64,000 nucleotides of DNA from contig OZ249439.1 of the NCBI GenBank assembly GCA_965235115.1, positions 38,998,001 through 39,062,000 of the forward strand, in the 5' to 3' direction. The position numbers and the translations under genes were made by a program. Below are positions 1,177-64,000 of this stretch, piece by piece. The notes under the pieces are model-generated. The model worked only from the letters and a program-made list of their open reading frames with translations. It did no database searches and was not told the origin of the DNA. The stretch is from Laetmonice hystrix (Eukaryota). Each line of letters begins with the position of its first letter. Position 1 is the first letter of the stretch.

Positions 1177-1801
1177 TGTAAAATGCGATGTGTAGAAGTG
1201 TATACACTTTGTATTACTATACATTATCAATTATGTGCCTTTATGTGCCTTATATAATATCGATTATGTGCCTTATGTTACCATTCATATAATCTTGTAT
1301 CTTATATATTATATAATCGTATATTTCACATAATCTTATAATATTATCATTTATATATTTTTGTATCCTACATATAATATTCTTAGAGTTAAACCGCCTA
1401 GAATCACCTGTCAGTGTACATTCAGTCGTCACGAGCCGATCGGGATCGGGAGTGTTTTAATGGTCAACGTGAACTCAAGAGGGGTGAATCATTTTTATTG
1501 CTTGTTGTTGCTTGTGAGAAGAGTGACCCTACTGAGGCGACGGGGGTTTGCAATAAAAGGCGGTTGAGCCAGGCAGCAGGTACGCATTTGCCGATCACTT
1601 TTCTACCGGAGCATGATCCGAGACTTTACTCGGAGCACTTCACCGAGACAGATTCTACAAAGCTTCTAGCTTGGGACGCCGCTGCCTGGCGACACCATGT
1701 TTTAAACGGTACATCATTCTTATGTTTTAAATTCATCAAGCAAGTGTGCGGCAGTGTCAGGAGTGGGACGACAGGCTCCTGACACAGCAGCACATTTTAC
1801 A
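1177..1801 (+). repeat. 5' LTR (625 bp)
   Basis: TG...CA ends with a 9-bp terminal inverted repeat. AATAAA at 1552-1557. Bases 1620-1801 match 9589-9770 with about 5 substitutions. Confidence 0.88.
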
Positions 1802-1802
1802 G

Positions 1803-1820
1803 TGGCGAGCTCACCAGGAT
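1803..1820 (+). promoter_or_regulatory. Primer-binding site, tRNA-Arg-like
   Basis: TGGCGAGCTCACCAGGAT lies 1 nt after the LTR end. It matches 14/18 to the complement of the tRNA-Arg(ACG) 3' end as recalled (TGGCGAGCCAGCCAGGAG). Confidence 0.65.
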
Positions 1821-2293
1821 CAGCCTCTGGTGGGGCGCTGCAGTGCCGTCAGGTGCTCCCCATCAGTGCCGCTGGTCCATGTGAACCCTGTCGTCGAGCG
1901 TAGCTATCGCGGAGCGGTAGCGGTCTCGTCATGCTCCGGTGACGCCAAGCTAAGGTGAAGTGACTTATTTTTTCACGATGATCATATTGGGGGAATCAGT
2001 TCTCCTGGGTGACTCCGAACTCCCGGATGAACTTATAGACTTGGCGGACGCAACAATTGCCGAAAGAGGTTTCTTTAGTTTTTGGTTTAGGATTCTTGGC
2101 ATTTGGGTGCAAGCCACAGTTATATGTCCCCTGGTTTGCGGTTACGTCATTACTAGCAATGGGCGGTGCATAACGTACAACCTGGAAGACGCCAATGGTT
2201 CTGTGCGGGACAGTAATGAAGATTGAGTTTTTCCTTAATTTTTCCTTAAATTGCTCACGTTTATAGTGACTGTTTTTGTAATTAATAATCAAT

Positions 2294-3182
2294 ATGGCGG
2301 AGGACCGTCGGGAAAAGCAGCTTTCTGGATTCCTCTAGTCTATGCCCCTGACTGACGGGTCTAACCAGGTCCAGTTGGGAGAATGGTTAGATAGAGCGGC
2401 ACTGGTTGTTGAATATGTTCCGGGGATGGACCTCGTAATGTTTAAACGTTTTTTAGTTAAGTCTGCTGCCGGGTCCTTGCTGCAAGATGTCCGTCGCTAT
2501 CAGGCCGAAGAAGCGACTCCGGCCACGTTAGTCGCTCATTTGCGAGAAACCTTTGTAGATGCCAGCGAGGCCGACCGCCGCATCTGACGCGGACAGTTAC
2601 GCACAGTCGCCATACCAGACTGTGTCCGATTACATCGCGCAATACCGATACCATTTTAACCGCGCGTATACAGTGGAAGACACTCAAAACGAGAAATTGC
2701 GCCGGCGACTTATTCGCCAGTTCGTTAACGGGCTGACCGACGAGGCTCTTCGTATGAGCGTCGCTGCCGAGCAGCCCGAAACAATGGAGGCTGCCTTTGA
2801 ACAGGCGCGCCTCGGGGCGAACGCGAGGTTGTGGGTTCGCCAAGCTCCCACCCGCAGGGAGGAGCCCATGGATGTTGATGCAATACCACCCCTGAGCGCA
2901 GGTAAAAAGGGCAGTTCCGCGGAAGGCGACCTTGAGACTGTAGTCTCCAAAGTTGTCGCGAATCAACTCCGCGGTTTCCAAAAACAACTCGGGCAGATTA
3001 TGAATCGCCTGCCTGAGGGTTCCGGCCATGATTCACAGCGGTCGCGGTACAAAACGACCCGACCCTCCGACCAGTCCAAATCGAGCATTCGGTGTTACGG
3101 TTGTGGTCGCCTTGGCCACATTAGGCGCGACTGCCAGGCCCAGGGAAACGGGCGGCTGGTTGTAGATTACGTACTCTGGTAG
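2294..3182 (+). pseudogene. gag: gag (retrotransposon gag domain + CCHC zinc knuckle); in-frame stop at 2336 and a frameshift near 2583
   Basis: MAEDRREKQL...; LIRQFVNGL; EEPMDVD; CYGCGRLGHIRRDC zinc knuckle. Confidence 0.9.
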
Positions 3183-6100
3183 ACACAGGCGCTGCCCGCA
3201 CACTGTTACGTAAGAATAAGTGGGATATATACCGACGCGCTCGCGGTCTCCCCACTTATCTTGAGCCTGCTGATCCTATACGTTCGCTTAGCGGTGATTT
3301 ATTATTGCCCGCGCTAGGTGCAAGGGAAATCACCATCTGTGGCCGTTCAGTACCCGTTATTGTCTAGGAACTACAACACGACTTTTTGTTAGGAGACGAT
3401 GCTTTGCGCCTTTTACAGGCAAAACTCGATTTGTATAGCAATACCGTAATTTTAATGGGGCCGCCGCCGTACGTGCTAGGGACACAGCTCGGGAGGTTGC
3501 TGAAGCCTCGCTGTCAGCCCTCGATTTCTGGAAGGCGGAATTTCCTGATGTTTTTGGCCAACCAAGGCCGCTTGGCTGTAAAGTTGATGTGGAATTCGAA
3601 ATTGAGGTAGAGGAACGTACTAGGCCGATCTGGCAGCGCCCATATAGGGTGCCGCTTACAAAAAGGGCGGTAATTGACGAGCAAGTTGCCGATATGCTCG
3701 AGCAGGGAATTATACGCCCGTCCTCATCGGCATGGGCTAGTCCCGTTACACTCCAGCCGAAGAAGGACGGCTCAATGCGCTTTTGCGTCGATTACCGTGC
3801 CTTAAATTCAGTCACAAAGAAAGATGCCTATCCTTTACCTCGGATTCAGGATATTTTTGATTCGCTTACTGGAGCAACCATCTTTAGTTCCTTAGATTTA
3901 AAAAACGGTTTTTTCCAGCTACCGGTCGCTCCAGAGTCAATACCATACACTGGGTTTGTCACGCCCACTGGTCTTTACGAATTTTTGCGAATGCCGTTCG
4001 GTGTATCAAATGCGCCAGCTTTTTTCCAGCGCGCTATGCACTCTGTCCTCGGTCCATTGTTAGGTACGTGCGTTCTAGTATTTCTGGACGATATCGTCAT
4101 TTTCAGTCGCAATCCCGACGATCACGAGCGCGATGTGCGTGCCGTTTTTGAGGCATTAAGGTCTCACGGTCTTACAGTTAAGGAATCGAAGTGTACCTTT
4201 TGCGAACCATCTATAAAACTTTTAGGGTACGTTGTGAGTGGTGATGGAATATCCCCTGACCCTGAGAAAATCTCTGCCCTCCGCGATATGCCAGCTCCGA
4301 CCGATGTGCGTGGTATACGCCGATTTTTAGGAATGGCTGGCTATTACCGTCAGTTAATACCAATGTTTTCGCATCACGCGGCACCTTTAGTGCACCTTAC
4401 GCGTAAACACAGTAGGTTTATTTGGTCGGATGAGTGTCAAGCCGCTTTTGACCATTTAAGATATGCGTTGACGAGTGATTCGGTTATGGCGTACCCTCAG
4501 CTTGATGCGCCATATAAGCTGTATACTGATGCCAGTCAGTACGCGGTTGGCGGTATTTTAACGCAGCTCGATTCCAATAACATAGAACGGCCGGTACAAT
4601 ATATTTCTAAAACCCTTAATCATGCACAGCAACGTTGGTCCGCTATTGAACGAGAGGCGTTTGCTGTTGTTCACGCCCTGACTGTCGTCAGGCCCTATCT
4701 TTATGGCGCCGAGTTCGAGATTTTTACGGACCATAAACCTTTAAAGGCGTTGTTCTTAAGGGAAGTCCAGAATACTAAGATCCAGTGGTGGAAAAGTTTT
4801 ATTGCCGAGTATGGTGCACCTATCCGGTACACAAAAGGATCGAACAATGTGCGCGCCGATATGTTGTCCCGCATAAAAGTTGTTGACAACAGTCCGGTGG
4901 CGGTCATCGACGCTGACGTGGCCGCAAGTGATCCCCACGATAACTCGATACGAGCCGATGGTTTGGATCCTGCTATCGTTAGTGAGCGAGTAGTGGTGGT
5001 TTTGCGCCGTGTCGGCATCCGGGGCCATCCTCACGGCGAAAACAGAGTTATAAGACCATAAAATCAAAGGAACCTATTTTATCCCGGGTCCCAACGGGAA
5101 CACCACCAAAACACATCTATAAAAGAGTCAGAAGTCCAGCCTCTACCTTTACCTGCTATCGATGCACAACGCGCTCTACCGGAATTCGGCCAATTAGGTA
5201 TTGATGACGAATACACCCTCCATGATGGGTATTTGTGTACTCTACGACCTCCCTCAGGACAGCTCACTTACCCCCGCGGTTTATTACCGCCTCAGTTTCG
5301 GTCGACGGTGGTTAATAACGTGCATGTGACGTATCGGACACCAGGGTGGTCGTAAAACTTTGTATTGTGTACAGCTCACTTATAAATGGCCAGGCCAGTG
5401 GCGGTCAGTGCAGAACGATGTTTACCGATGCGCACTGTGTCGTGTGCATAGCGAGAGACGGCACTACCCGCCCCCCTCCGAGATGCCTGTTGCTCATTAC
5501 CCCGGTCAGGTCATGGCCTTAGATATTGTTGGCCCTCTGACGCCCACCCGTTCGGGCATGCGATACTTATTGACGGCTATTGGCCATAATTCCGGTTGGC
5601 TTGATGCTACCCCTATCAGGGCTAAGTCACAACAGGAAGTTTTTCATTATGTTAAGAATCAACTTGTCCCTCATTACGGAGCGCCCGAGATCCTTATCAC
5701 GGATCAAGGTCTAGAATTCCGGGGCTGTGACTTGGAGGCTTATTTAAAGTTGATAGGTACCGACCACCGACCCCTATCACCCCCAGACTAATGGGAAGAT
5801 TGAGAGAGCGCATCGCACTCTAAAATCTCTCCTACGTAAGTTAACCAACTGTAACGCTGAGTCTTGGGAGGATGAACTGGGTGCCGCGCTGTGGTCGTAC
5901 CGGATTACCCGTCACGACGCGACTGGGTTTTCGCCTTATTTTCTGCAATACGGGAGAGAACCGCGGGTTCCCCTGTCTTGATTTTTATCGGCCCGACCGC
6001 CTGATGACGCAGACACACTGCGCCGTTTTGATGTTTTGGCGGATGCTTTCCATCTCTCGGCGTCAAATACCGAGAATTCTCGCCGTTATAACCGGCAACG

Positions 6101-6587
6101 TTTGGAGGCGCGCGCTTCCGCCAACACGACTCAGATTGGGGATAAAGTACTCCTCAAGGTTAACGAACGAGCACCGTTAGATCCCCATTGGGATTACTTA
6201 TATACTGTTGTGGCTGTGCGCGGTCCTGTTGTCACCGTGACCGGTCAGCGGTCTGGTGCCAGGAAGACCCTTAACCGTGATAAAATTTTATTGGTTGACC
6301 CTGATTTGGACTGGGACGATGTGAACCCACGAGTCAAGCGTCACCGCCGACCTCCCCATTTACCGCTCGAGCGGCGCCGACTTGCCCCTCGCGACGACGG
6401 TCAGCCGCGGCCGTCATGCAGCTCAGACCCTCCAGTGACCCATAACGACCCCCAAACAGTTAATTTGCCCCCCGTGACCGGTACCATTCCCGACCAACCA
6501 GATGTGCCCCCTGTGACCCGTGACGACCTTGCTCAACCCGATGCACCCCCTCCCATGGACGTGGATCCGCCTTGTCTTGTCTTGTGA
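3143..6587 (+). pseudogene. pol: pol: aspartyl protease, RT, RNase H, integrase; disrupted
   Basis: LVDTGA at 3176-3193 in the -1 frame after GGGAAAC. Intact RT/RH ORF 3589-4978 (RFCVDYR, MPFG, VFLDD, LYTDAS, TDHKPL, ADMLSR). Integrase motifs ALDIVGPL, ITDQGLEF and NGKIER. LINE insertion at 4979-5151 plus frameshifts. Confidence 0.93.
4979..5151 (-). mobile_element. 5'-truncated I-clade-like LINE 3' end inserted in pol
   Basis: Matches 6910-7080, 10146-10395 and 17797-17960. (ACTC)n tail on the minus strand. 10-bp TSD CCTGCTATCG at 4969-4978 and 5152-5161; excision restores the pol frame (DPAIDAQR). Confidence 0.85.
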
Positions 6588-6668
6588 TCCGGACCCCCCT
6601 CATTCTTCTTTGAGTCAGCGCCATCCTTGCCTGGCGAAGAAACTTCAGAACGCTTCTATCAACTTATA

Positions 6669-6909
6669 ATGTCACTTTTAACATTTTGCTTGTTAGCCAC
6701 GGCAGTGGTTTGTGTTTCAACAGAGGATCTCCTTGCTCATGATGGAGTGCTTGTCGTACCACCACAGGATGCCCGCGCCACTTCAGCCATATGGCGGGTC
6801 ATTGTTACTCTTCACCCGCCAACCTTTCTTTTCCCGATGAACGGCTGGATCAAGATTATTGATGGTGTCATCGATGCTCATCACGATTATTCGGATCGGT
6901 CTACCAGGG
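6669..6909 (+). pseudogene. env: env copy 1, N-terminal 80 codons, truncated by a LINE
   Basis: Signal-peptide-like MSLLTFCLLATAVVCVS. Near-identical to the env starting at 9073. Confidence 0.8.
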
Positions 6910-7438
6910 AGTGAGTGAGTAAGTAGTGGTGGTTTTGCGCCGTGTCGGCATCCGGGGCCATCCTCACGGCGAAAACAGAGTTACAAGACCATAAAATCAA
7001 AGGAACCTATTTTATCCCGGGTCCCTACGGGAACACCACCAAAACACATCTATAAAAGAGTCAGAAGTCCAGCCTCTGACAAGAACTCTAAAATCACTCC
7101 TGGTCTGACATTGCTAAAAAGATCCTTAAGACCCGTCTCATTATAAAACCTTTGTCTGATGAGAGTAAAATCACCACATTCGAGTAAAAGATGCTTCAGT
7201 GTCAAAGGACATTGACAGCCATAACATTCAGGAGGCGGCTCCCCCTTCAATAAAAACACGTGGGTTAATCTAGAATGACCAATCCTGCATCGAGTAAAAA
7301 CAATTTCATGCCTCTGTTGGGTTAGGCCATGATGATACCTTTGATTTACGATGGGACTGATCTGATACAATTTATTGTTTGGTTGTTCATCCCATTCGGC
7401 CTGCCATTTGTTTTTAACATAAGCCCAGATGGTAGGTC
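6910..7438 (-). mobile_element. I-clade-like (Nimb/I/Loa group) LINE 3' fragment with C-terminal CCHC finger
   Basis: Minus ORF 7050-7445: RCRIGHSRLTH...PPECYGCQCPLTLKHLLLEC...ILEFLSEAGLLTLL. Followed by a 3' UTR and an (ACTC)n tail. Confidence 0.85.
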
Positions 7439-9073
7439 TAACCAACTGTAACGCTGAGCTGGGTGCCGCGTTGTGGTCGTACCGGATTACCCGTCATGAG
7501 GCGCCTGGGTTTTCACCTTATTTTCTACAGTACGGCAGAGAACCGCGGGTTCCCGTCTCGATTTTTATCAGCCCAACCACCTGATGACGCAGACGTGGTG
7601 CGACGTTTAGATGTTTTGGCGGATGCCTTCCGTACCTCTGCATCAAATACCGAGAATTCTCGCCGTTATAACCGGCAACGTTTGGAGGCGCGCGCTTCCG
7701 CCCACACAATTCAGATTGGGGATAAAGTTCTCCTCAAGGTTAAAGAACGAGCACCGTTAGATCCCCATTGCAGGGCTCGATCTTCCCATTTTTTGCCACT
7801 AGCCAGCCGGGCTGGTGGCTGGCAAAAGTCACTAGCCCGTGACAGATTTCACTAGCCCGAACAGAAAAACTATAACTAAATGATCATGATGCTATATCTA
7901 TGTCATGACATTGCCAATCATGGCAATGTCACAATAGATCATTTTATTGTCCAGAACCACAATTAACTGTCCCTGGTTGATTCCACATGATGAGTTTTTG
8001 TTAGTTTTTTATTTGACCGCAAATCTGCCCAAGGTCAATGGCGTCAAAAAACCGGAAGGTAATAAGTTAGGCTAGTCTATCATTCGTTTACCTCCCCCGG
8101 GTATTAAGCACAGTAACATGTAACTGTTGTACGTAAAGTTAATTTGCATACGTGGGTGAAAGCAAGCGTTGGCACAGCCTAAAAGCAAAGACAAAACTCT
8201 GCTAAAATCAATTTGCATACGTGAGCTTCCGCTAATCCAGCATCAGTTACCCTCCCCCGGCTGCCACAGAGCAACAGATACTCTGTGGTAGATAACAGGT
8301 TAATTTGCATACGGGAGTGAAAACAATTGCTGGCAAAGCCAATGCAAATGATGCAGGTCACCACAACCCACCAACCCTTTACAGCATCAATGAACTCTCT
8401 GCCATGGCGGTGCGACGGGCGACTCCACCTAAAGTAGGGGTGTCAGGTTGCCAGCTGCCTGCCATGGGGGGACATTCACGGGGGGAAAGGCTGCCAACTT
8501 CTACTCGCCAGCCGGGCGACTAGACTGGGATTTTTCAGTCGCCGGAGCCGACTTTTCACTCGCCACGGATCCCGGGCGAGTGCGAAGATCGAGCCCTGCC
8601 ATTGGGATTACTTATATACTGTTGCGGCTGTGCGCGGTCCTGTTGTCACAGTGACCGATCAGCGATCCGGTGCCAGGAAGACCCTGAATCGCGATAAAAT
8701 TTTATTAGTTGACCCTGACTTGGATTGGGACGTGAACCCACGAGTCAAGCGTCACCGACCCCCCCCCCCCATTTACCGCTCGAGCGGCGCCGACTTGCCC
8801 CTCACGACGACGGTCAGCTGCGGCCGTCATGCAGCTCAGAACGACCCCTAAACAGTTAATTTGCCCCCCGTGACCGGTACCATTCCCGACCAACCAGATG
8901 TGCCCCCTGTGACCCGTGACGACCTTGCTCAACCTGATGCACCCCCTCCCATGGACGTGGATCCGCCTTGCGGGACAAAACGGTCTTGTGATCCGGACCC
9001 CCCTCATTCTTCTTTGAGCCAGCGCCATCCTTGCCTGGCGAAGAAATTTCAGAACGCTTCTATCAACTTATAA
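7439..9073 (+). pseudogene. pol: Second copy of the integrase C-terminal region (paralogous to 5842-6669)
   Basis: Aligns to 5842-6669 with roughly 8-12% differences by eye. Interrupted by a MITE at 7771-8598. Confidence 0.88.
7771..8598. mobile_element. Non-autonomous hAT-type DNA transposon (MITE) with 6-bp TSD
   Basis: 15-bp TIR CAGGGCTCGATCTTC / GAAGATCGAGCCCTG. TSD CCATTG, confirmed against the empty site at 6185-6190. Confidence 0.88.
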
Positions 9074-9588
9074 TGTCACTTTTAACATTTTACTTGTTAG
9101 CCACGGCAGTGGTTTGTGTTTCCAGAGGATCTCCTTGCTCGTGATGGAGTGCTTGTCGTACCACCACAGGATGCCCGCGCCACTTCAGCCATGTGGCGGG
9201 TCATTGTTACTCTTCACCCGCCAACCTTTCTCTTCCCGATGAGCGGCTGGATCAAGATTATTGATGGTGTCATCGCTGCTCATCACGACTATTCGGATCG
9301 GACTACCAGGGCCTGGTGGCGTGTGCGTTTGGATAGGCTTGGCGGCCTGATCAACCACCCTGCCCGTCGTCGACGTCGTGCCATCCTTGGCTTTATTGGT
9401 GACCTTTCACGTATCATTTTTGGCACTGCCACAGAATCGGAACTCCGTGACGTTTCTCGGATTGTGACGAGTCTTAGTTCCGATGTGGAGGACGTCATTC
9501 ACAACACAAGGGAACTTTGGACCATGTTAAACGGTACGAGCAACTACGTCCAGCAGAATCGCGACCTTATAATTACGATGGAACTGAT
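9073..9588 (+). pseudogene. env: env copy 2: class I (baculovirus-F/errantivirus-like) fusion glycoprotein ectodomain, frameshifted near 9120, 3' part deleted
   Basis: Signal peptide, then a furin-like RRRRR followed by the fusion-peptide-like AILGFIGDLSRIIFGTAT and a heptad-like helix. Confidence 0.85.
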
Positions 9589-9770
9589 GAGACTTTACTC
9601 GGAGCACTTCACCGAGACAGATTCCACGAAGCTTCTAGCTTGGGACGCCGCTGCCTGGCAACACCATGTTTTAAACGGTACATCATTCTTATGTTTTAAA
9701 TTCATCAAGTAAGTGTGCGGCAGTGTCAGGAGTGGGACGACAGGCTCCTGACGCAGCAGCACATTTTACA
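9589..9770 (+). repeat. 3' LTR remnant (last 182 bp)
   Basis: Matches 1620-1801, ends in CA, followed by the ACAT TSD. Confidence 0.88.
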
Positions 9771-10145
9771 ACATGTTTAACTCCGATGTACTTCTTGAAG
9801 CGAATGTGGGTCACTAGGGCACTCTAACCATAGGCCTAAAAGATTATGCATAGTCATTGGCACCTCCTGTGGATTATGAGAGAGGCTGAATATTTTTAGT
9901 TTGTAGCCCTACTTTGGATTGATAAGGCATTGTAATAACACCGCCTTGGTGGATAGCAGCATCGTGTCGGTGGATACACAAAATTTAGCATCGTTGGGTT
10001 ATGAATGATGACCAACCGACATGGGCCATCGCAGATGGAAAAAAATGCATTTAATCAGACATATGACGAAGTTGATTTTTTGCCACCCAGGTTGAATTTG
10101 TATGGGATGGGCCATAACCAGATCTAGAGGATTTAATGGAGTAGG

Positions 10146-10395
10146 GAGTGAGTGAGTAGTGGTGGTTTTACGCCATGTCGGCATCTGGGCCATCTTCACG
10201 GCGAAAACAAAGTTAAAAGACCATAAAATTAAAGGAACCTATTTTATCCCGGGCCCCAGCCGGAATATCATTAAAACACACTCCATCCTGTCAGCTGAAC
10301 AGGGCTATGATGAGCCTGAACTAGCCTGATGAGTCCAGCCTCTGGCAAAAACTCTAAAATCACTGCTAGTCTGACATTGCTAAAAAGATCCTTAA
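10146..10395 (-). mobile_element. Diverged I-clade-like LINE 3' fragment
   Basis: Homologous to 6910-7130, with more substitutions and a ~50-bp foreign insert at about 10281-10330. Confidence 0.8.
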
Positions 10396-10503
10396 TGATC
10401 AGTTAGGAGGGAAGTGGGAATAAACTATTTGATTTGGTTGTTGGTCATAAAAATTGTCTCAGAACGGTTGCCAATAAAACCTTTGTTTTTCAATTTACTT
10501 TCA

Positions 10504-12208
10504 GGTACGACAAGCAAGAAGAGGAAGTAAGGTATGACTTTGAAGCTGCCAAGGAGAAGATCCTCAAACTTAAGTCTTACATTCTCCATGCCAAGAACCA
10601 AGAACATGCCAAATCCGACATTCTACAGTCACTGACAGGAGGCCAGGCATTGGTGACAATGGATTGGGCCATGAAATTTCTGCCAAGCAAGTTTCGAGAG
10701 GCACAGCAGGATTGGTTTGGCAAGAAAGGGGTATCTTGACATGTGTCTGCTGTTGTGTCTGCGGACACAAACTCTGCCTTCCAGGTATGTAACTGAGTGA
10801 GTCTGTGTTATTCATCCTTTTGACAGGCTTTAGGTATGGGGAGTATGGCTTTTTTAGGAACCTGCTGTTGTGGAATTCAAGGGAATGAAAGCAAAGTTTC
10901 TCAATTCTTAGGTCGGAATTCAGTCATCAACCTGAACATGTACCTATAAATATAAACTATTTTTTAATAAACCTGTATGACATGTTTATTGAATTACTTC
11001 CCATTCATTTTCAGATCCATTGTTATGTTCATCTCATTGAACAATGTAAACAGGACAGGTTTGCTGTGTACTCCATCGTCAATGCCACCCTGCAAAAAAT
11101 AAAGTCTGACCTACCAATGGTGAAGGAAGTCTTCCTTCGATCTGATAATGCGGGGCGCTATCACAACGCATCTCTGCTGCTAGGCCTTCCATCTCTCACA
11201 AAGGAATTGGGCATCAGGATCTCCAGATATGACTTCTCAGAGGCTCAAGCAGGTAAAGATATCTGCGACCGGAAGATCGCCCCTACGAAGTCACATATTC
11301 AACGCTACATTTATGAAGGCCATGACGTTATGAATGCTTCCCAGATGCATGCAGCACTGGATTCCCATGGGGGAGTACGCGGATGCCAGGCTGCTGTCCT
11401 GACGTTGGATACAGATGCTGTTGGAGAGAAGTGCTCCTGGCCAGTAATAACAGCATACACCAAGTTTCAATTTGAGGGCAATGGAAAGGGTATAAAATGG
11501 GTGAAGGTACTCTCTTTCTTTACTCCAACTTGATCGGCAAACAACGGCCTCAGGGTCCTTCTAATGTGCAGGTTATAGTTTACTCCAAGCCAGCAGTGGA
11601 GACTGGTGTTATGGGAGCATCAGCTAGGCAGCCTGGTGTTGAGGTGCCATGCCCAGAAGTTGGCTGCACTGAGGTGTTTGGGTCCTATGAGAAACTTGCA
11701 AACCACATGGCAGTTGGTCGTCATGGCAACCAGCCACTGAGAGAGACAAAATTCGATGAAATTAAGAAGAAATGGGCAGGCAAGTTTTCCGTAATTGCAA
11801 AGCCAGGTGTAACTGGTGCCTCTGTAACCATTGGTTCAAAGAAGGTTTCTATGTTGCAAGTGAGCCCAGGATGGGGCCCACATGTACAAAAAGGACACCG
11901 CAGGTATGCGCCAGAATGTCTGTGCCTTCCTCCACCAGGCATTCATGAAGGGAGTGAATACCGGCATAAAGGAGAATCCTTCTGACACATCGAGGAAGCT
12001 GAAGGCGGTATTCAGCAATGAACACTGGTTATCTGTTCAGCAGATGACCTCATATTTCAGTAGACTGTCATCCAGGCAGAAATGTGGTCGTCTTCCAACA
12101 ACCACAGCCACAACTGACGAGGACACTAATGTACCAGAAGTAGCTGTCCAAGATGCACTGTCCAGGTACAGCTTAAGAAAAAGAGTTCAGAAAGAAGTGG
12201 GATACTGA
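10504..12208 (+). pseudogene. Spliced Sola-superfamily (Sola2/Sola3-like) DDE transposase remnant with C-terminal C2H2-like finger
   Basis: Motifs DWAMKFLP..REAQQDWFGKKG, RSDNAGRYH, FSEAQAGKDICDR and CPEVGCTEVFGSYEKLANHMAVGRH. GT-AG intron 10785-11014 joins the exons in frame. Stop at 10737 and later frameshifts. Confidence 0.65.
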
Positions 12209-12723: not shown

Positions 12724-14915
12724 ATGGCAGACGACTTGGTTGCGACTACAAAGACGCGCAATGATGAGGCTAGTTTGGAGCGTCACGCCAAACAGAGGTT
12801 CAGGATGGCACTAATAGCGACTCTCTACGACAATGGCTGGACGACGTCTCGTCAGCCAAAGAATGGACATAGACAACTGACGAGCTCTCCTTGTCCATGG
12901 TGGGATACCTAGTGAAGGGCGAATTGGACACGTCGGTACGCAGCTGGATCAGGCGTAACGGCCAAGATAGGATCGGCAATACGTGGGAGCTAGGAAGAAG
13001 ACAGAAGCCACGTATTTAGATCAGGATGAGCAGGAGTACCTGCGCCGTCAGATGGACAGGATGATGCAGTCGGCCTTCTAAGACATTAGGAAGTACAGTC
13101 GCTCGTTTGATGTGGCCGGTAAGCGGGCCTATACCGCCACTAAATGGGAGGTGGCAGTCGTAAAGGAAAGGTTGGTACGGACCTATATTTCGGGCATTAG
13201 AAACAGGAACATCTGGACGCGCGCATTCACCCTCGACGCTGCCTACCTAGCAGCCTCCACTATAGAGAGGGCCGAGGCAGAGAGAGGAGGAGCCGATGGA
13301 GGTCGGGGGGCCCTGCCCCCTCCCACCGCGGAGATGCTGAGGGCAGCTCAGTTGGCACGACCACCGGTCCCTCCCACCGACCCTCAACCAGATTTGGAAG
13401 CGACTGTCAGCCGGCTGCTTGACCGTAAGTTATCCAGGGTACAGCGGCAGTTAGGAAACATGGGGAGAGCCCTGGCTGGTCTGTCGACGCCGGGCCCGTC
13501 GGTAGCGACAGCCTTCAGCCGCTCACAGCAGCCAAGGACAAAGATGTCAAAACCACAACGGACACCAGAGGGGGTAATTGTATGCTACGCGTGTGGTCAG
13601 CCAGGTCATATTGCACGGGAATGTGGCGTGCGGGAATCGCCAATTAGCCACTCTAGTCAAGCGGGGTGACACGCAGGCCAGGGTGGCGTTATCAACAACG
13701 TGTGGGCCTCTGAACGGACTAATTAACAGTGAGGCTGCATGTTCTTTGATGGCCAAACAATTTCGGCTTACACTATGTAAGCACAACGGGAGAGAGCCGT
13801 TGGCCCACCCAGCCAAAGAGCCACTCGTATCCCTCACAGGAAAACGTATTAAGGCGGTAGGTACAACCATTGTGAACACTGCAGGTGTCTACGCACTGGT
13901 GTTTATTGTGGACAATTTACAATTTGATGCCATTGTGGGGGATGATGTGCTGGGCTCGGCGGGTTCATGCATTGATTATGTTAACAAACGGATCCATAAA
14001 TACAAGAATTCCGCCTCCTTCTACCCTCGCCACTCGATAACTAATATACCCACCGAAGCTGGGCGATAAAAAGGGAAGCGAGAGCCTCGTGGCGCCGGAC
14101 GATAATAGGGTAAATCACAACAACTTCTGAGAGCCGAGCCACCACCGACGCCCATCATCAGTAAGCAAGTCAAAGTGGAAAAGGCAACAAACAAGGGAAA
14201 GAAAGACTGCAACCCGAAAAAAGGGACAGGATGCCAGGAAAAAGTCACTCGACAATTCCATCAGCTGCTGCAGTGATTTATCGGAGATCTGCCCTATAGA
14301 AGCCTCGCACACACTGGACCAGGCCTTGAACTTGGAATGGCATGACTCCAACTCTCAGACTCAGGCAGGTGATATGGATACCCAAAACAACGAAGTCGTA
14401 CCCGCCAACACAAAGGGTAGGCCTACTAGCCATAACAACAAAGACTATGGTAAACAAATGTCTTGTCAGGGACTGTAAATACCTCATAATATTATGTCGA
14501 CGACATTTTAATTTATTCAGAAACGGGGAGGACCATTTAAAACATCTCGGCATTCTTATCGACCGATTGCATAAAGCAGGACTGCACCTCAAAAGGTGTA
14601 AATGCGACTTCTTTAAGAGAGAGCTTAACTACCTTGGACATGTAATATCAGAGAAGGGCCTCAGGCCAAACCGTGAAAATGTGGCGGCCATCCGTGACTT
14701 GCCCAAGCCCCAAAACGTGCGTGACATTAGGAGCTTTGTAGGCATGGCGTCCTTTTATAAGGGCTATATTCCAAATTTTTCAAAACTGGCTGAGCCATTA
14801 ACCAAATTAACAAGGAAGCATGCAACATTCACCTGGTCAGATGAGCGTCAGCAGAGCTTTGTAACTCTGAGGCATAAGTTGTGTGATCCACCAGTATTAG
14901 CATTCCCAAACCCGG
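12724..14915 (+). mobile_element. Degenerate Ty3/gypsy gag-protease-RT fragment
   Basis: CYACGQPGHIAREC knuckle; protease-like LINSEAACSL...DAIVGDDVL; YVDD at 14491-14502; YLGHVIS...RSFVGMASFY...PVLAFP. Confidence 0.85.
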
Positions 14916-15759
14916 GGTGCAGCGGTCATAGGCAGACCAATTGAATTTTCCAAACTGATATGTCTATCTGTAATAAAAACTAACTGAACCTCTCTGAGCA
15001 AATGTACAAAAGGTTACAGAAAGAAACCAAATGCGACAGTCAGCTACAGTAGCTAGCATCTCGAGATGGTGTCCCACCCCACCTCATTGTGTGGTGGTTT
15101 GAAAGAAATAAACAGTTGTGAAGCAGGTTTGCGGGGAGGTTTGGTTCTCTCCAAATCAGATTGTCTGTAGTGTGGGTGCTTACCCCGGTGATGCCTCCTA
15201 ACAAAAAGGGGAAAGACAAGACTGTTAAAACCTTGAAACAGCAGTCAGACACCGGGTTTTGTCTACCTCGGGCTGGCAAACCAAGATGGGGACTGCCATG
15301 GCCCAGATTTCAAGGATTGGGACACTTAACTTGATTCTGGATCGGAAGACGCAAGTTTCATTGACAAGGAGTATGAAAACCCAGGGTCAGGAGCTCTGAC
15401 TCTGAGTCAGTCCCAGCGGACGACCCTGACACTGATAGGGTGAGTGTCAAGACGGGGCTATCACTGCTGCCCTCCTAAATATTCATGCACGAGTCCACGC
15501 CACATGCACTGCTGCCCCTGCCAAGGCTGTAAAGCTTAAGCACCCATGTGTTTCTATGGCCAACATGACTTTTTGGCAGGTATACAAACCACAGACTTTG
15601 GGATGCATGATCAGAACCCCCTGACTGGACCACGGCACGGCAGCCATCTCCTCCCTTGCAGCACTCCAATCTGTCCGATGGGACCGTGTACGAGAGGCCA
15701 CCGCCAGCGATGAGGACATGCACCTCCTTATTTTGCTCATCGAGGATGGCCTGCTTCAG

Positions 15760-17342: not shown

Positions 17343-20054
17343 TTTCATAGCAATTTCAAGATTTTTAGTAGACCTCAACGGGCTCAACGAAATAAAGAAG
17401 GTATCGCGCTGTATGTTGGAAAGATTTTCAGGAAAGGTGGTGGCTTGGAAACTGTCACCTTTATTGGGCCAGGCCTGGTGGACAAAATGAGGGCGAAGAC
17501 CTTCGTTGTCATAGCAGACTTTGAACTGCAGGGACCGTCTTTGCGGACAACAAATAGCAGCCAGGTAAGCGTTAATTTGTTTGCTTTTCAGGTTAAAATG
17601 TATTTCTGACAGTCACATTGATTTTAAAACCTTAATCAAATTAAATAATTTAATAAGGAATATGTAGTCAAATTCCTTTATTTGCAAAGCTGGGGTGGCA
17701 AGAGAAGTTGAATTTTTTTTTCAGAAATCTTTTTTCTTTTTTATTTAAATAGACTTTTATTGATTAAAATCGATTTTTACTCAGACATCTGATCAAGTGA
17801 GTGAGTGAGTAGTGGTGGTTTTGCGCCGTGTCGGCATCCGGGGCCATCTTCACGGCGAAAACAGAGTTATAAGACCTTAAAACTAAAGGAACCTATTTTA
17901 TCCCGGGTCCCAACGGGAACACCACAAAAACACATCTATAAAAGAGTCAGAAGTCCAGCCTCTGACAAGAACTCTAAAATCACTCCTGGTCTGATATTGC
18001 TAAAAAGATCCCTAAGACTCGTCTCATTATAAAACCTTTGTCTGATGAGAGTAAAATCATTCGAGTAAAAGATGCTTCAGTGTCAAAGGACACTGACAGC
18101 CATAACATTCTGGAGGTGGCTCCCCCTTCAATAAAAACACATGAGTTAATCTAGAATGACCAACTCTGCATCGAGTCAAAACAATTTCATGCCTCCGTTG
18201 GGTTAGGCCATGATGATACCTTTTGGTTTACGATGGGACTGATCTGATACAACTTATTGTTTGGTTGTTCATCCCATACTGGTAGTCTCAGTAAGTCATT
18301 TTTAGTGTTTCTTGAAATCATATTGGTTGGAGATTTGTGTAAATGATATAGAAAAGTATTTTTGCCTGAGGACAACCACTTTTCAAAATATGGTTGTCCC
18401 CACATAATATTTGGTTGTCCTCACACAAAAAGGAATGTTGGCTTCCTAGGGATATTATTAAATGTTTACTCTATTTTGTAGTGGCTATGACTGCACAATG
18501 TACGTATGAAACATTATGATCATAATACAGATCAGGGGTTTAAATAAGAAACAAAGTAGAAGGGGAAGCTGACAAAGTAGGAGGTAGTAGATAGAAGGAG
18601 GTGGCCCAGGTGCAGCAGCCGCAGGTCGCAGAAAACATACAATATAGATCTATATACAATAATCATCAGCTGAATGAGGTAAATCTATACAAATGTATGG
18701 GTCACTGGAACCTAAAGTTTTATAGAGGGGTCTACATGTATAATACAAAACATGACTGGGTGCATTTTCACCAATTATATTTTTTTGAATGTCCTTTTAT
18801 GTGTCTGGAACCCTTGCAGTCATCAAGCCAGCACAGAATGGCCTCATCTGAATTGAACTTTGCAAGGGAGGGTCCATTAATCTTAATCTGCATCAGCTGA
18901 TTGAGACAGACACACGAGTACCTGACGAATTTTGATCGATTTGTCTTTATTTAACTGCCATTAAACGATAAAATAAGCATCGTTTTTGGTATTTAAAAGG
19001 TGGTTGTCCAGGTATTTATTTTCGGTTGACCGCACGGCTGACATAGGCGTCCGGGACACGCGATTTTTACAGGCCTGTAAGGGCATCTGAACATAAAGGC
19101 TTAGAGTTGTTATAAGTTTGTCATGTTAATTTGTTCTGGGATCATATTCTTTTGTCTAGCGTTAGCACAGAAGCCTCAAAGTAATACTTGAGAATTGAAA
19201 ATTTTATCTCTACTGCTAGCTAATTGGGTTTGTCATTTACACCACAACATTTTTGAAATGTTAAGATCATCTCACATCTTTTCTTAACAGGATGAAGCAG
19301 TGCGAAATGTGAAGAGCAAAGGCTTCACGGTCGCGGTAAGAAACATAACAGTTTCGGATAAAAGTGGCGTTATCCGAGTCGCTTTATGGCAGGAGTCTGC
19401 TAGTGCTGCGATTTCAAGTGGCAGCGTAGTTACCATCAAGGATGCCATACTGAACTTTAACAATGAGAAAAAGGAGTTTACAGCATCTGTCAGCGACATC
19501 AATGATGTTGAGGTATTGTGCTCTAGGCCGACATCTAATTGAATGTGTGGTTTCGTTTGTGCTCACAGGAGTGCCACTTGTCAGCTTGTCATTATTTTCC
19601 AATTGATGGTTGCGCGAGTGGCACATCATGGCCATCCTAGTATTTTTGACATAACTTCAATTTTTTTGGAGTTCAAGTTACAAAACAATTTTTAAGGGTT
19701 TTTTACTTTGATGGGGGGATATTTTACACTGAAATATTTCTTTATTTTATCCTCCTGATTAAATCAATGTAATTTGATGTTACAATTGGTTAGGTTCAGC
19801 AGGAACAAGAAGTTGAGAAAACGCTGATGATCAGTGCCTTACAGCTACAAGAAGGGCAGGTGACCGTTCTTGACGATACAGATGATGTGGATTCCAAGGC
19901 GACGCTAGGCGATCTTCTCACGGAGATGAATGTTACCACTTTTGAGGATGCTCTCGATCTCTTACCATATAGCTTTAGCTGTATGGTTATGAGAGACAGA
20001 ATTGGGCGGTTTGGGTATGTCTTAGTTTTTTTTATGCTCTATATATGTTGCTGA
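17343..20054 (+). CDS. Multi-exon OB-fold (RPA/SSB-like) protein gene or pseudogene
   Basis: Open exons ~17343-17564, 19291-19512 and 19794-~20054 with phase-0 GT-AG junctions. RNITVSDKSGVIRVALWQESA...GSVVTIKD...FN is an OB-fold pattern. An intermediate exon may be missing. Confidence 0.55.
17797..18360 (-). mobile_element. I-clade-like LINE 3' fragment
   Basis: Homologous to 6910-7400; (ACTC)n tail. Confidence 0.85.
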
Positions 20055-44213: not shown

Positions 44214-46777
44214 GGGTCATTCCATGTGAAATCACCCAGGGCTCCCATAGTGATAGTCTCAGATTTGCTTCAAATTTTTTTAACATGTTGCCTGTGGTGC
44301 CAAATGAAAATATGCAAAGTTTTACCTCATTATCATTTATAGTTTTTTTTTATTAGGGGGTCAAAAAAGTGGGCGTGGCTCCTTTTATCGCGACAAAAAT
44401 GCTGCCGACAGATTTATTCCCATCTTTAGCAAGCCATAGCTCAGGAACTATCAACGATATCAACTTGATTTTTTCAACATAGATCCTTCATCATGTACTC
44501 TCTTGTTGGCAGGTGTCATATTAAAATTTAATCAAGTAGGAGTCAAGCAATTATCTGCTACATTTAAGCATTTTTCTGACGAAAATGAAAAATCGTCACA
44601 TTTCAGATCAGCTTTTCACCCATACCTCATAGGATGAATAGAGTTTAGTTGTTTCTAAATGATAGTACACCTAAAGGGCTTCCTACAGTAACAAAAGCAG
44701 TTACTTAACCCTTTCAGTGCGGAGTTTCTATTATTCAATCCATTGAACGAATTTTAATTTATTTTAGAGCATTTTCACAACTTTTACATTTTCCCTTGTA
44801 GATACCTTTGCAATAGAAGGATCAAGATGAAATTTTCACCAGATTTGGAGAACATCCTGAGGGTCATGGAAATTATGACTTTGACTAATTTTAGGGGGGT
44901 TGGGTCTCTGGGGGGTCACCTGAACCCATTGTAACACGGTTGAACACATTTTTTTCACACAAAAAATGGTAAAAATAGTTACGGGAAAAATAAAAACAAC
45001 CTCAAAAATAGCTTTTAGGTGGGGTTATTTCAAAATATAGATGATTTCTAAATACTCTGAGGTAGTTTGGGGCAAATATTTAAAAAAATAAAGATTTGGT
45101 GGATAAATGAAAAAAGTACAATATTGCTATTTTTTTGGCATTTGAGAGGGTCCCATACAGTTCATCCGCTTTGTAATGACCCCCCACAGGCCATGCTGAC
45201 AACATAAAATCATGTGAGTGATGCAGTCCTGCCCTCTAGTGTAAGGTATGCGTGCAGGCAACCATAGGTCCTTGCTGTGCTGCCATCTATTGATGGGTTT
45301 ATGTGTGGGCGACCAGAGGTCGCCAACCGTCTCTACAGAGAGTTTGAGCTTGGCGACCTGGGGTCGCCAGCCGCACTGAAAGGGTTAAGATCAGTAGTTT
45401 TCTGGCAAGAATAGCAGGTACCGGGTCTCAGCAGGAAAAAACCCTATTTGGGCCCCTTTTTTGAAGATGTGGGTATCCTTCGATTTTGATAATAATTATA
45501 TCATCAGAAAGCCCTTGATGTGTACCGTACCATCAACATACCTATTTTCATTGTTAAACTAGCACCCTTTCATCTTGAAAAAAAATATTGATTTTTAAAA
45601 GTATTGACACATTTCGGACGTCATCATGTCCACCATGATCTTTTAAAGATAATACTGAAAACACATTCCTATGCAAATTATTTTGATAATAATTATATCA
45701 TCAGAAGGTGCTCCCTTGATGTGTACTGTCACCATGCCTATTTTCAATCTGGAATCTGTCTGGTTGTCTGGCAACCCTGTAATTAGAATGTGCTCCTACT
45801 TTTTTGCCAGTTTCTGTCGATTGGCCTGCCACCTAGTGAAATATGAATGAACTACAATAGTGCTGATCTAGCAGTGCATTGGAATTTTCTTTACAGGGTA
45901 TCCTCAGACCTCACCTACGAAATGTCAAAATTTTAAAATACAGTAATTTTTTCCAAAATGAAAAGAGTACTAGTTGCACACTGAAAATAGGCATATACGA
46001 CTGTGTTTTCAGTATTATCTTTGGAAGATCATGGTGGGCATGATGACGTCTGAAATGTGTCATTATTGTTAAAAATCAATATTTTTTTTCAAGATGAAAG
46101 GGTGCTAGTTTAGCAATGAAAATAGGTATGTTGATGGTACACATCAAGGGCTTTCTGATGATATAATTATTATCAAAATCGAAGGATACCCACATCTTCA
46201 AAAAAGGGGCCCAAATAGGGTTTTTTTCCTGCTGAGACCCGGTACCTGCTATTCTTGCCAAAAAACTACTGATCTTAAGGAACTGCTTTTGTTACTGTAG
46301 GAAGCCCTTTAGTTGTGCTATCATTTAGAAACAACCAAACTCAATTCATCCTATGAGGTATGGGTGAAAAGCTGATCTGAAATGTGACGATTTTTCATTT
46401 TCGTCAGAAAAATGCTTAAATGTAGCAGATAATTGCTTGACTCCTACTTGATTAAATTTTAATCTGACACCTGCCAACAAGAGAGTACATGATGAAGGAT
46501 CTATGTTGAAAAAATCAAGTTGATATCGTTGATAGTTCCTGAGCTATGGTTTGTTAAAGATGGGAATAAATCTGTCGGCAGCATTTTTGTCGCGATAAAA
46601 GGAGCCACGCCCACTTTTTTGACCCCCTATTTAAAAAAACTATAAATGATAATGAGGTAAAACTTTGCATATTTTCATTTGGCACCACAGGCAACATGTC
46701 AAAAAAATTTGAAGCAAATCCAAGACTATCACTATGGGATTTGTCTGAAAATTGGGTGATTTCACATGGAATGACCC
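44214..46777. mobile_element. Foldback non-autonomous DNA transposon (Sola2-like termini), ~775-bp arms
   Basis: GGGTCATTCC...GGAATGACCC termini with 4-bp TSD AAAG. Arms are 44214-45664 (minus the insert) and 46003-46777. Confidence 0.82.
44709..45384. mobile_element. piggyBac-type MITE
   Basis: TIR CCCTTTCAGTGCGG / CCGCACTGAAAGGG with TTAA TSD. The empty site is visible in the opposite foldback arm at about 46270-46285. Confidence 0.92.
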
Positions 46778-62233: not shown

Positions 62234-62482
62234 GTAAGCATGCCATATATTATTGAGAAAGGCAACTCAAAACATAAAATCGCAAGGGTTGGGGATCATC
62301 AAGATCTGTAAATTGGAGCAAAGGATGGAAAGACCAAGAGCTGGCCTTTTCCTTAAAGCAAATCACGATTATCTCTTATTTGATTGACTACAAAATGAAG
62401 ACAGGGAAATAAAATTCTTTGGGCGATGAACCGATGAATTTCATTGGCTGTTCAAGTCCATGCCAGGTCAACAATTTTGTCA

Positions 62483-64000
62483 ACAATCAGCCATAAGCTG
62501 ATTGGTTCAAGTGAAGCCCATACGAAGAGGGTTACTTTATTAATAGTTTATCAATGACAATCAGCCATAAGCTGATTGCTTAAAGTGAAGCCCATACGAA
62601 GAGGGTTACTTTATTGATAGTTTATCAATGACAATCAGCCATAAGCTGATTGGTTCGAGTGAAGCCCATACGAAGAGGGTTACTTTATTAATAGTTTATC
62701 AATGACAATCAGCCATACGCTGATTGGTTCAAGTGAAGCCCATACGAAGACGGTTACTTTATTAATAGTTTATCAATGACAATCAGCCATAAGCTGATTG
62801 GTTCGAGTGAAGCCCATACGAAGAGGGTTACTTTATTGAGAGTTTATCAATGACAATCAGCCATAAGCTGATTGGTTCAAGTGAAGCCCATACGAAGAGG
62901 GTTACTTTAGTAATAGTTTATCAATGACAATCAGCCATAAGCTGATTGGTTCAAGTGAGGCCCACACGAAGAGGGTTACTTTAGTAATAGTTTATCAATG
63001 ACAATCAGCCATAAGCTGATTGGTTCAAGTGAGGCCCATACGAAGAGGGTTACTTTATTGATAGTTTATCAATGACAATCAGCCATAAGCTGATTGGTTC
63101 AAGTGAAGCCCATACGAAGAGGGTTACTTTAGTAATAGTTTATCAATGACAATCAGCCATAAGCTGATTGGTTCAAGTGAGGCCCATACGAAGAGGGTTA
63201 CTTTAGTAATAGTTTATCAATGACAATCAGCCATAAGCTGATTGGTTCAAGTGAGGCCCATACGAAGAAGGTTACTTTATTGATAGTTTATCAATGACAA
63301 TCAGCCATAAGCTGATTGGTTCAAGTGAAGCCCATACGAAGAGGGTTACTTTATTAATAGTTTATCAATGACAATCAGCCATAAGCTGATTGGTTCAAGT
63401 GAAGCCCATACGAAGAGGGTTACTTTAGTAATAGTTTATCAATGACAATCAGCCATAAGCTGATTGGTTCAAGTGAAGCCCATACGAAGAGGGTTACTTT
63501 AGTAATAGTTTATCAATGACAATCAGCCATAAGCTGATTGGTTCAAGTGAGGCCCATGCGAAGAGGGTTACTTTAGTAATAGTTTATCAATGACAATCAG
63601 CCATAAGCTGATTGGTTCAAGTGAAGCCCATACGAAGAGGGTTACTTTAGTAATAGTTTATCAATGACAATCAGCCATAAGCTGATTGGTTCAAGTGAAG
63701 CCCATACGAAGAGGGTTACTTTAGTAATAGTTTATCAATGACAATCAGCCATAAGCTGATTGGTTCAAGTGAAGCCCATACGAAGAGGGTTACTTTAGTA
63801 ATAGTTTATCAATGACAATCAGCCATAAGCTGATTGGTTCAAGTGAAGCCCATACGAAGAGGGTTACTTTAGTAATAGTTTATCAATGACAATCAGCCAT
63901 AAGCTGATTGGTTCAAGTGAAGCCCATACGAAGAAGGTTACTTTATTGATAGTTTATCAATGACAATCAGCCATAAGCTGATTGGTTCAAGTGAAGCCCA
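62483..64000. repeat. Intronic tandem array, 74-bp unit, at least 20 copies, running off the window
   Basis: Unit contains CAATCAGCCATAAGCTGATTG...GAAGCCCATACGAAGAGGGTTACTTT. Confidence 0.97.

What the first reader, a model, noticed from the sequence alone, without database searches (positions are those of the whole stretch)
6667..9075. pol stop and env start overlap as TAATG in both copies: possible stop-restart translation of env
Seen: ...AAC TTA TAA TG TCA CTT at 6667-6671 and 9071-9075. In copy 2 the integrase-tail frame (ORF 8861-9073) ends on this TAA, and the env signal peptide starts on the overlapping ATG. The pentamer is conserved between two copies that differ elsewhere. Established: insect errantiviruses express env from a spliced RNA, whereas UAAUG coupling is known from influenza B M1/BM2 and the SART1 LINE. 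Inference: this lineage may make Env by termination-reinitiation after a -1-frameshifted Pol, making Env very rare and splice-independent. No UGGGA TURBS-like motif was seen upstream.
Basis: partly seen in the sequence, partly recalled or inferred. Interest (0 to 1): 0.7.

Follow-up and report, generated by a model that had tools for sequence, protein, structure and literature searches.

The report
Retrovirus-like element's tight pol-env overlap
In a recently active retrovirus-like jumping gene of an animal, the stop of the polymerase gene shares one letter with the start of the envelope gene; related families overlap these genes more loosely, so the envelope is likely made from its own shorter message, although this family also has a predicted RNA fold that could let ribosomes restart.

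Summary
TAATG is present at 6667-6671 and 9071-9075, but both window copies are broken. Elsewhere in the genome, 7 of 14 junction copies carry an open integrase frame that ends on this stop. Intact copies read gag, then pol in the -1 frame, then an F-type env. The pentamer is family-specific: 18 sister env families show overlaps of 13-88 nt (16) or gaps of 4 and 105 nt. Across 19 families the env AUG has a -3 purine (19/19) and AUGs are depleted just upstream (3 vs 9.3 expected). A different AUG lies nearer the pol stop in 14/19. This fits scanning on a subgenomic, probably spliced, mRNA (about 55%), but no conserved splice acceptor was found and no RNA run was available. This family alone has a host-matched UUGAG in a TURBS-like predicted fold (chance 0.1-8%, defined after seeing it), and two older copies have TGATG. 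Stop-restart therefore stays open at about 30%. The scan's notes held no earlier report of this.

The parts
1177..1801 (+). 5' LTR of the decayed window copy (86% to an intact copy's LTR)
1802..1819 (+). putative primer binding site, directly after the LTR
   Evidence: position only, tRNA not identified
1952..1960 (+). splice-donor-like site in the leader (7 of 9 consensus positions); candidate only
1978..2226 (+). 82-codon leader ORF upstream of gag, open in 11 of 12 leader copies translated; no Pfam match
2294..3182 (+). gag with zinc knuckle (frameshifted in this copy)
3143..3149 (+). GGGAAAC slippery site for -1 gag-pol frameshifting; strong downstream hairpin in the intact copy
3125..6669 (+). 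pol (PR-RT-RNase H-IN), in pieces, with a repeat inserted at about 4982-5160
6603..6641 (+). copy 1 of the U-rich tract / UUGAG / GAAGAA segment (TURBS-like layout not predicted in this variant; also the splice-acceptor candidate)
6667..6671 (+). TAATG, copy 1: Pol-tail stop and env start
6669..6909 (+). env 5' part with signal peptide, cut by a repeat insertion
7455..7770 (+). extra integrase fragment of the same family
8599..9073 (+). copy 2 integrase end and Pol tail, ending on TAA
9007..9045 (+). copy 2: predicted helix (9007-9012 with 9040-9045) enclosing an unpaired UUGA(G) at 9014-9018 complementary to host 18S helix 26; the same letters form a pyrimidine tract plus AG acceptor candidate
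9071..9075 (+). TAATG, copy 2
9073..9574 (+). env 5' part (frameshifted early; furin RRRR and fusion-peptide region in ORF 9101-9712), truncated and joined to an LTR piece at 9589-9770

Best explanation
TAATG is the true pol-stop/env-start junction of a recently active gag-pol-env Ty3/gypsy family and the tightest case of a short pol/env overlap seen in its sister families, and Env is likely made by ordinary scanning on a subgenomic, probably spliced, mRNA whose last exon would begin about 50-100 nt upstream of the AUG. Shown: the architecture, the -1 frame overlap, the family-specific pentamer, the strong -3 context, and AUG depletion upstream. Inferred: the subgenomic mRNA, and splicing rather than an internal promoter. 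On this reading the env start sits just behind a conserved basic motif at the Pol end, and Pol simply stops at the next in-frame stop. In this family the AUG appears to have moved a few codons downstream, so the stop now overlaps it.
For: Offsets in 19 family representatives: 1 (this family), 13, 22, 22, 34, 37, 40, 40, 40, 43, 43, 46, 49, 49, 49, 70 and 88 nt overlaps, plus gaps of 4 and 105 nt. The env tree (21 rows) nests this family among families with 37-88 nt overlaps. -3 is a purine in 19/19 (A in 17) against 53%/26% for background AUGs; at 8 fourfold-degenerate Pol wobble sites it is a purine 8/8 (product p 0.004). TURBS restart does not need this context (PMC10275272, passage). Third-frame AUGs in the 102 nt upstream number 3 vs 9.3 expected (P 0.003; 17 families), with no depletion further up. 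Another AUG is nearer the pol stop than the env AUG in 14/19, several in strong context. The pol stop is not closer than the synonymous null. In this family a pyrimidine tract with AG at -54/-50 lies downstream of the last upstream AUG at -122. Precedent: Drosophila iERV env junctions are mapped as spliced (bioRxiv 2023.08.03.551782, passage); XtERV-S has an env start overlapping the pol stop in the -1 frame with EST-supported splice sites (PMC8278194, passages).
Against: A crude acceptor score showed no enrichment upstream of env AUGs (3/19 below 0.2 in 300 nt; 4/19 in 110 nt). 2 of 11 leaders had no donor-like site at 7/9 or better. 0 of 7 deletion derivatives had GT-AG ends. Families are related, so the P values overstate independence. 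In this family the -3 base is a twofold purine wobble and so uninformative. This family alone shows a host-matched TURBS-like fold, and the older copy L015 lacks the CAG acceptor candidate while having a longer helix-26 complement.
Confidence: 0.55

Rival explanations
1. This family has secondarily gained TURBS-like termination-reinitiation. Ribosomes that frameshift into pol and stop at UAA would be tethered through UUGAG to the host's own 18S helix-26 loop and restart on the overlapping AUG, alone or alongside a subgenomic mRNA.
For: It is the only 1-nt overlap among 19 families. The stop is swapped (TGATG) with the overlap kept in two older copies at about 80-86% identity. The host helix-26 apex has a UUCA loop. 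UUGA at -59 is predicted unpaired (P 0.7-0.9) inside a 6-bp helix with an inner hairpin. The layout is found in this family and in 0 of 18 others under strict and loose rules; null rates were 3/2354, 38/1672 and 128/1672 windows for strict, loose and loosest rules. It is present in 9 of 12 young copies. L015 has an 8-nt complement (null fraction 0.027) and keeps the motif-to-stop distance across a 6-nt deletion and a 6-nt insertion. TURBS activity follows the host's helix-26 sequence (PMC3035654 and PMC11921876, passages).
Against: The layout rule was written after seeing the sequence; under the loosest rule 4 of 19 families pass. Complementarity in young copies is only 5 nt including a G-U (null fraction 0.43), with the G predicted paired. 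The linker is 27 nt and the fourth pair is U-A, against at least 6 nt, 12-23 nt and C-G in known TURBS (PMC11921876). L015 folds its motif paired. A second in-frame stop 4 codons on means the TAA is not needed to end Pol. No structure is predicted downstream of the stop (z +0.56), unlike SART1 as described in PMC10275272. Output would be a few percent of an already minor Pol.
Confidence: 0.3
2. Env is made from genome-length RNA by internal ribosome entry or shunting that lands about 50-100 nt upstream of the AUG and scans, independent of the pol stop.
For: It fits the -3 purine, the short AUG-poor zone and the lack of conserved acceptors. The leaders hold many upstream AUGs, so these RNAs probably already use non-standard initiation. 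IRES activity in Drosophila gypsy RNA is recalled, not checked.
Against: No conserved or unusually stable structure was shown (upstream 122 nt z -1.5), and there is no direct test.
Confidence: 0.1
3. The whole clade uses a loose, RSV-M2-like restart in which ribosomes slide back 13-88 nt from the pol stop.
For: The env AUG lies within 105 nt of the pol stop in 19/19 families and in the -1 frame in 17/19.
Against: Competing AUGs nearer the stop are not purged (14/19), while upstream AUGs are. Stops are not close by the null. TURBS-type restart falls off beyond about 30 nt (PMC10275272).
Confidence: 0.05

Closest known systems
Env-carrying Ty3/gypsy elements ('ancient errantiviruses', F-type env) of Chary and Hayashi, PMC13524379 (abstract, sections 5-7 in part, 22, first part of supplement 1)
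   Same: LTR-gag-pol-env order, multicopy and recent, F-type env with signal peptide, furin site, fusion peptide and TM.
   Different: That paper's main text has 0 hits for splic, overlap, reinitiation and frameshift, so env expression is not addressed there. Placement in its Pol tree was not tested.
Drosophila insect ERVs (gypsy, ZAM, Idefix), bioRxiv 2023.08.03.551782 (passages)
   Same: F-type env as third ORF; the default model of a spliced env mRNA.
   Different: There the start codon or N-terminal peptide comes from the upstream exon. Here env has its own AUG and full signal peptide at the pol end.
XtERV-S of Xenopus tropicalis, PMC8278194 (passages)
   Same: [quoted passage not shown]
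   Different: A vertebrate class III retrovirus with a class I env; overlap length not seen in the passages read.
TURBS elements of influenza B M1/BM2 and caliciviruses, PMC11921876, PMC3035654, PMC10275272 (passages)
   Same: UAAUG; an rRNA-complementary motif enclosed by a helix about 60 nt upstream (predicted here).
   Different: The motif is UUGAG, matched to a different host loop; 5 nt rather than at least 6; 27-nt linker; no C-G at pair 4; function untested.
SART1 LINE and CHV1 UAAUG coupling (seen only through review PMC10275272 and a search listing of PMC2699510)
   Same: The same pentamer joining two long ORFs.
   Different: They couple ORF1 to ORF2 (A to B), not a frameshift-dependent pol to env; SART1 needs a downstream structure, which is not predicted here.

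Membership tests
env-carrying Ty3/gypsy (errantivirus-like, F-type) | LTRs, target-site duplication, PBS and PPT | tested here: met
   LTR pairs 99.6-100% identical in 6 of 10 regions, 4-bp flanking duplications, polypurine run before the 3' LTR
env-carrying Ty3/gypsy (errantivirus-like, F-type) | gag with CCHC; pol order PR-RT-RNase H-IN | tested here: met
   Pfam on L023; protease only weak (E 0.04)
env-carrying Ty3/gypsy (errantivirus-like, F-type) | F-type env: signal peptide, furin site, fusion peptide, TM | tested here: met
   569 aa; hydrophobic peaks at 1 and 507, RRRR at 99. Baculo_F at E<=0.1 for 7 of 9 envs tested (2 over cut-off) but not for this env itself. Profile hit to PDB fusion protein 9w4d, E 4e-4
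env-carrying Ty3/gypsy (errantivirus-like, F-type) | 'ancient' group: RNase H plus mini domain; position in Pol tree | not tested
   no reference sequences to hand; no fold run
TURBS termination-reinitiation element | stop and start within 20 nt | tested here: met
   1-nt overlap
TURBS termination-reinitiation element | at least 6 nt complementary to the 18S helix-26 apex (UGGGA core in mammals) | tested here: not met
   no UGGGA; 5 nt with one G-U against the host loop in young copies; 8 nt in one old copy
TURBS termination-reinitiation element | P1 helix flanking an unpaired motif | tested here: inconclusive
   predicted in 9 of 12 young copies; no covariation available; not predicted in L015
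TURBS termination-reinitiation element | P1-to-AUG linker 12-23 nt; fourth P1 pair C-G | tested here: not met
   27 nt; third pair C-G, fourth U-A (read)
TURBS termination-reinitiation element | downstream ORF depends on termination at the upstream stop | not testable with these tools
   needs a reporter
spliced env of insect errantiviruses | leader or gag donor joined to an acceptor before env | tested here: inconclusive
   candidates exist in this family, no clade-wide enrichment; no RNA data
SART1-type UAAUG coupling | RNA structure downstream of the stop | tested here: not met
   z +0.56 for the 119 nt after the stop

The most novel reading that the evidence does not exclude
An invertebrate LTR retroelement has independently evolved a TURBS-like element matched to its host's own 18S helix-26 loop, and makes its fusogen by frameshift followed by stop-restart on one unspliced RNA. 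That would be stacked recoding not found in print for any LTR element by my searches, and a TURBS without the UGGGA core.
Probability: 0.27. Interest if true: 0.78.

Novelty: new member of a known kind. Interest (0 to 1): 0.42.

Why it matters
How env is expressed in non-insect env-carrying gypsy elements was not addressed in the survey text I searched, and this genome offers 19 families for comparison. On the likely reading TAATG is ordinary genome compaction, and a warning that a stop-start pentamer alone is weak evidence. If the rival holds, it would extend rRNA-tethered reinitiation to retroelements and show that such signals should be sought with host-specific rRNA complements rather than UGGGA. 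One short reporter series would decide.

Tried and rejected
RNA evidence: no RNA holder listed. Four contig runs of unrecorded kind from one sample, laid on this family, and two of them on a sister family, gave no leader-to-env joint; this says nothing either way. DNA of closer relatives: metagenome and viral contig scans gave 95 and 99 pattern matches, none confirmed, so junctions of the 53-61% identical envs could not be read. Further family copies: a DNA search gave the same 14 junction copies; a pattern search was at control level (107 vs 142 matches) and 7 of 7 checked hits were unrelated. Spliced retrocopies: 7 deletion derivatives showed microhomology or filler joints, none GT-AG; none of 15 leader loci joined to env within 1.5 kb. 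TATA-like words upstream of env occurred in 8 of 19 families at scattered positions, most overlapping Pol basic-residue codons; rejected as promoter evidence. A cluster of helix-26-complementary words about 58 nt before the stop in several families mostly reflects homologous E/A-K codons; rejected. A second -1 frameshift giving Pol-Env was considered and rejected by argument only: env has its own AUG and signal peptide in all 19. Supplement 1 of PMC13524379 (1 of 34 parts seen) lists no ORF coordinates; bioRxiv supplements with splice maps were not seen; the SART1 paper is not held; the leader ORF got no Atlas comparison.

Full report
Observation. TAATG lies at 6667-6671 and 9071-9075. The window holds a decayed Ty3/gypsy element from 1177 to 6909 plus two further fragments, 86-94% identical to intact copies. 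Neither window copy has an integrase frame that reaches the TAA, and both env pieces are broken. Agreement between the two copies is expected: 389 of 495 five-base windows are identical.

The family. A genome search gave 22 matches, covering 14 distinct copies of the junction: 12 TAATG and 2 TGATG. Seven have at least 663 open Pol codons into the stop. Of 10 regions fetched whole, 4 have gag, pol and env all open, and 6 have LTR pairs 99.6-100% identical. Gag is 294 aa, pol 1151 codons stop to stop in the -1 frame, env 569 aa. GGGAAAC with a hairpin (z -3.9) supports -1 frameshifting, and slippery heptamers occur in 11 of 12 gag/pol overlaps. Env has a signal peptide, RRRR, a fusion-peptide region and a TM segment. 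It is F-type through its relatives: Baculo_F in 7 of 9 envs but not in this one, a PDB fusion-protein hit, and 602 related clusters in public data.

Is the pentamer conserved? Three protein searches showed many other env families; 72 more regions were fetched. I kept one representative for each of 19 families. Dropped were near-duplicates (L077, L086, L104 and L123, among others), derivatives lacking the Pol tail, and copies too broken to read. In L115, L116, L117 and L130 the pol frame was inferred from the tail motif, since these copies are decayed. Result: overlaps of 1 nt (this family) and 13-88 nt (16 families, all -1 frame), and gaps of 4 and 105 nt, the latter seen in two copies. The env tree nests this family among 37-88 nt overlaps (midpoint root, moderate support for the immediate neighbours), so the pentamer looks derived. 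In most families the AUG lies in or just behind a conserved basic KRR-C-like motif at the Pol end; its role as a nuclear import signal is recalled by analogy and untested.

Tests between mechanisms. Position -3 is a purine in 19/19, against 53% background, and in 8/8 free wobble sites. Third-frame AUGs are depleted in the 102 nt upstream (3 vs 9.3, P 0.003; 17 families) but not beyond. Another AUG is nearer the pol stop in 14/19. The stop is not closer than synonymous shuffles give. Together these point to ribosomes arriving from upstream by scanning, not from the pol stop. Against splicing specifically: no acceptor enrichment, 2 of 11 leaders without a good donor, and 0 of 7 deletion derivatives with GT-AG ends. 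The families are related, so the P values are optimistic.

The TURBS question reopened. TURBS motif 1 pairs with the apex of 18S helix 26 and must match the host (PMC11921876 and PMC3035654, passages). The host 18S has a UUCA loop at the helix I identify as h26 from a recalled anchor, so UGGGA is the wrong probe. This family has UUGAG at -59, predicted unpaired within a 6-bp helix with an inner hairpin, in 9 of 12 young copies, including window copy 2. No other family shows this under strict or loose rules (null 0.13% and 2.3%); under the loosest rule 4 of 19 do (null 7.7%). One old TGATG copy has an 8-nt complement at the same distance despite two compensating 6-nt indels, but folds it paired. 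The rule was written after seeing the sequence, and three published features are not met (at least 6 nt, 12-23 nt linker, fourth pair C-G). The same letters are also the best acceptor candidate. It therefore works like a possible TURBS but is not filed as one.

Literature. PMC13524379 (abstract; sections 5 and 6 part 1, 7 and 22; supplement list; supplement 1 part 1 of 34) describes the element class without addressing env expression. bioRxiv 2023.08.03.551782 (passages) maps spliced env in Drosophila. PMC8278194 (passages) shows the same overlap geometry with EST-supported splicing. PMC10275272 (passages) gives the 20-30 nt limit and Kozak independence of TURBS. bioRxiv 2025.03.14.642691 (passages) describes small ORFs upstream of gag. 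Nine searches listed no paper on stop-restart expression of env in an LTR element; most subscription journals are not covered. The scan's own notes held no matching report.

Verdict. The feature is real, in a new member of a known class. A subgenomic, probably spliced, env mRNA is about 55% likely, family-specific TURBS-like restart about 30%, and other routes about 15%. No RNA data were available to decide. Interest 0.42; 0.78 if restart is shown.

Noticed in passing
window 1978-2226; L023:1769-2017: An 82-codon ORF with a hydrophobic, Cys-bearing middle lies between PBS and gag, open in 11 of 12 leader copies translated, no Pfam match. Sister families also carry leader ORFs of 60-184 codons; weak similarity to the L124 and L110 ORFs (phmmer E 0.01 and 2e-4 in a 13-sequence set). 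Reminiscent of sORF1/sORF2 of MDG1/412 but without the myristoylation motif.
   Followed up: partly
L124 (C8:25541350-25551250) leader: Two leader ORFs (70 and 77 codons) overlap as ATGA; in the related L110/L123 family one copy has two ORFs 1 nt apart and the other a single fused 158-codon ORF. Possible translational coupling in the leader.
   Followed up: partly
G000:C12:27539000-27899500 (L096): A large tandem array of about 25-30 pol-less partial gag plus signal-less env derivatives with a roughly 13-kb period; related copies elsewhere have 99.6% identical LTRs.
   Followed up: partly
L068-L074, L102, L109, L113: Several amplified non-autonomous deletion derivatives of sister families; L109 keeps gag, the Pol tail and a complete env but lacks most of pol.
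   Followed up: partly
Pol tails and Gag of many families: A P-M-D/E-V-D-like motif recurs both in Gag and 25-40 codons before the Pol end. The Pol frame over the env signal peptide keeps a C-x7-F-C/W pattern, suggesting true dual coding.
   Followed up: no
P0001-P0152: Among 67 env homologues with a clear signal peptide, residue 2 is Y, C, H, W or F in 27, as expected if a Pol cysteine codon overlaps the env AUG in other species too; indirect evidence only.
   Followed up: partly
window 4977-5240, 6910-7173, 10139-10395, 17796-18059: A short repeat with GAGT-type tandem ends is inserted four times in the window and also just upstream of the env start in old copy L014; a minus-strand ORF at 7050-7493 adjoins one copy and may be a LINE 3' end.
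   Followed up: partly
window 44243-46739; 62409-63966; 10407-12036: Nested long inverted repeats (up to 365 nt, 97%), a 74-nt tandem array of 18 or more units, and a decayed transposase-like or zinc-finger region.
   Followed up: no
window 13082-15334: A second decayed gypsy element (gag zinc knuckle, RT fragment), resembling the L088/L089 env-carrying family.
   Followed up: partly
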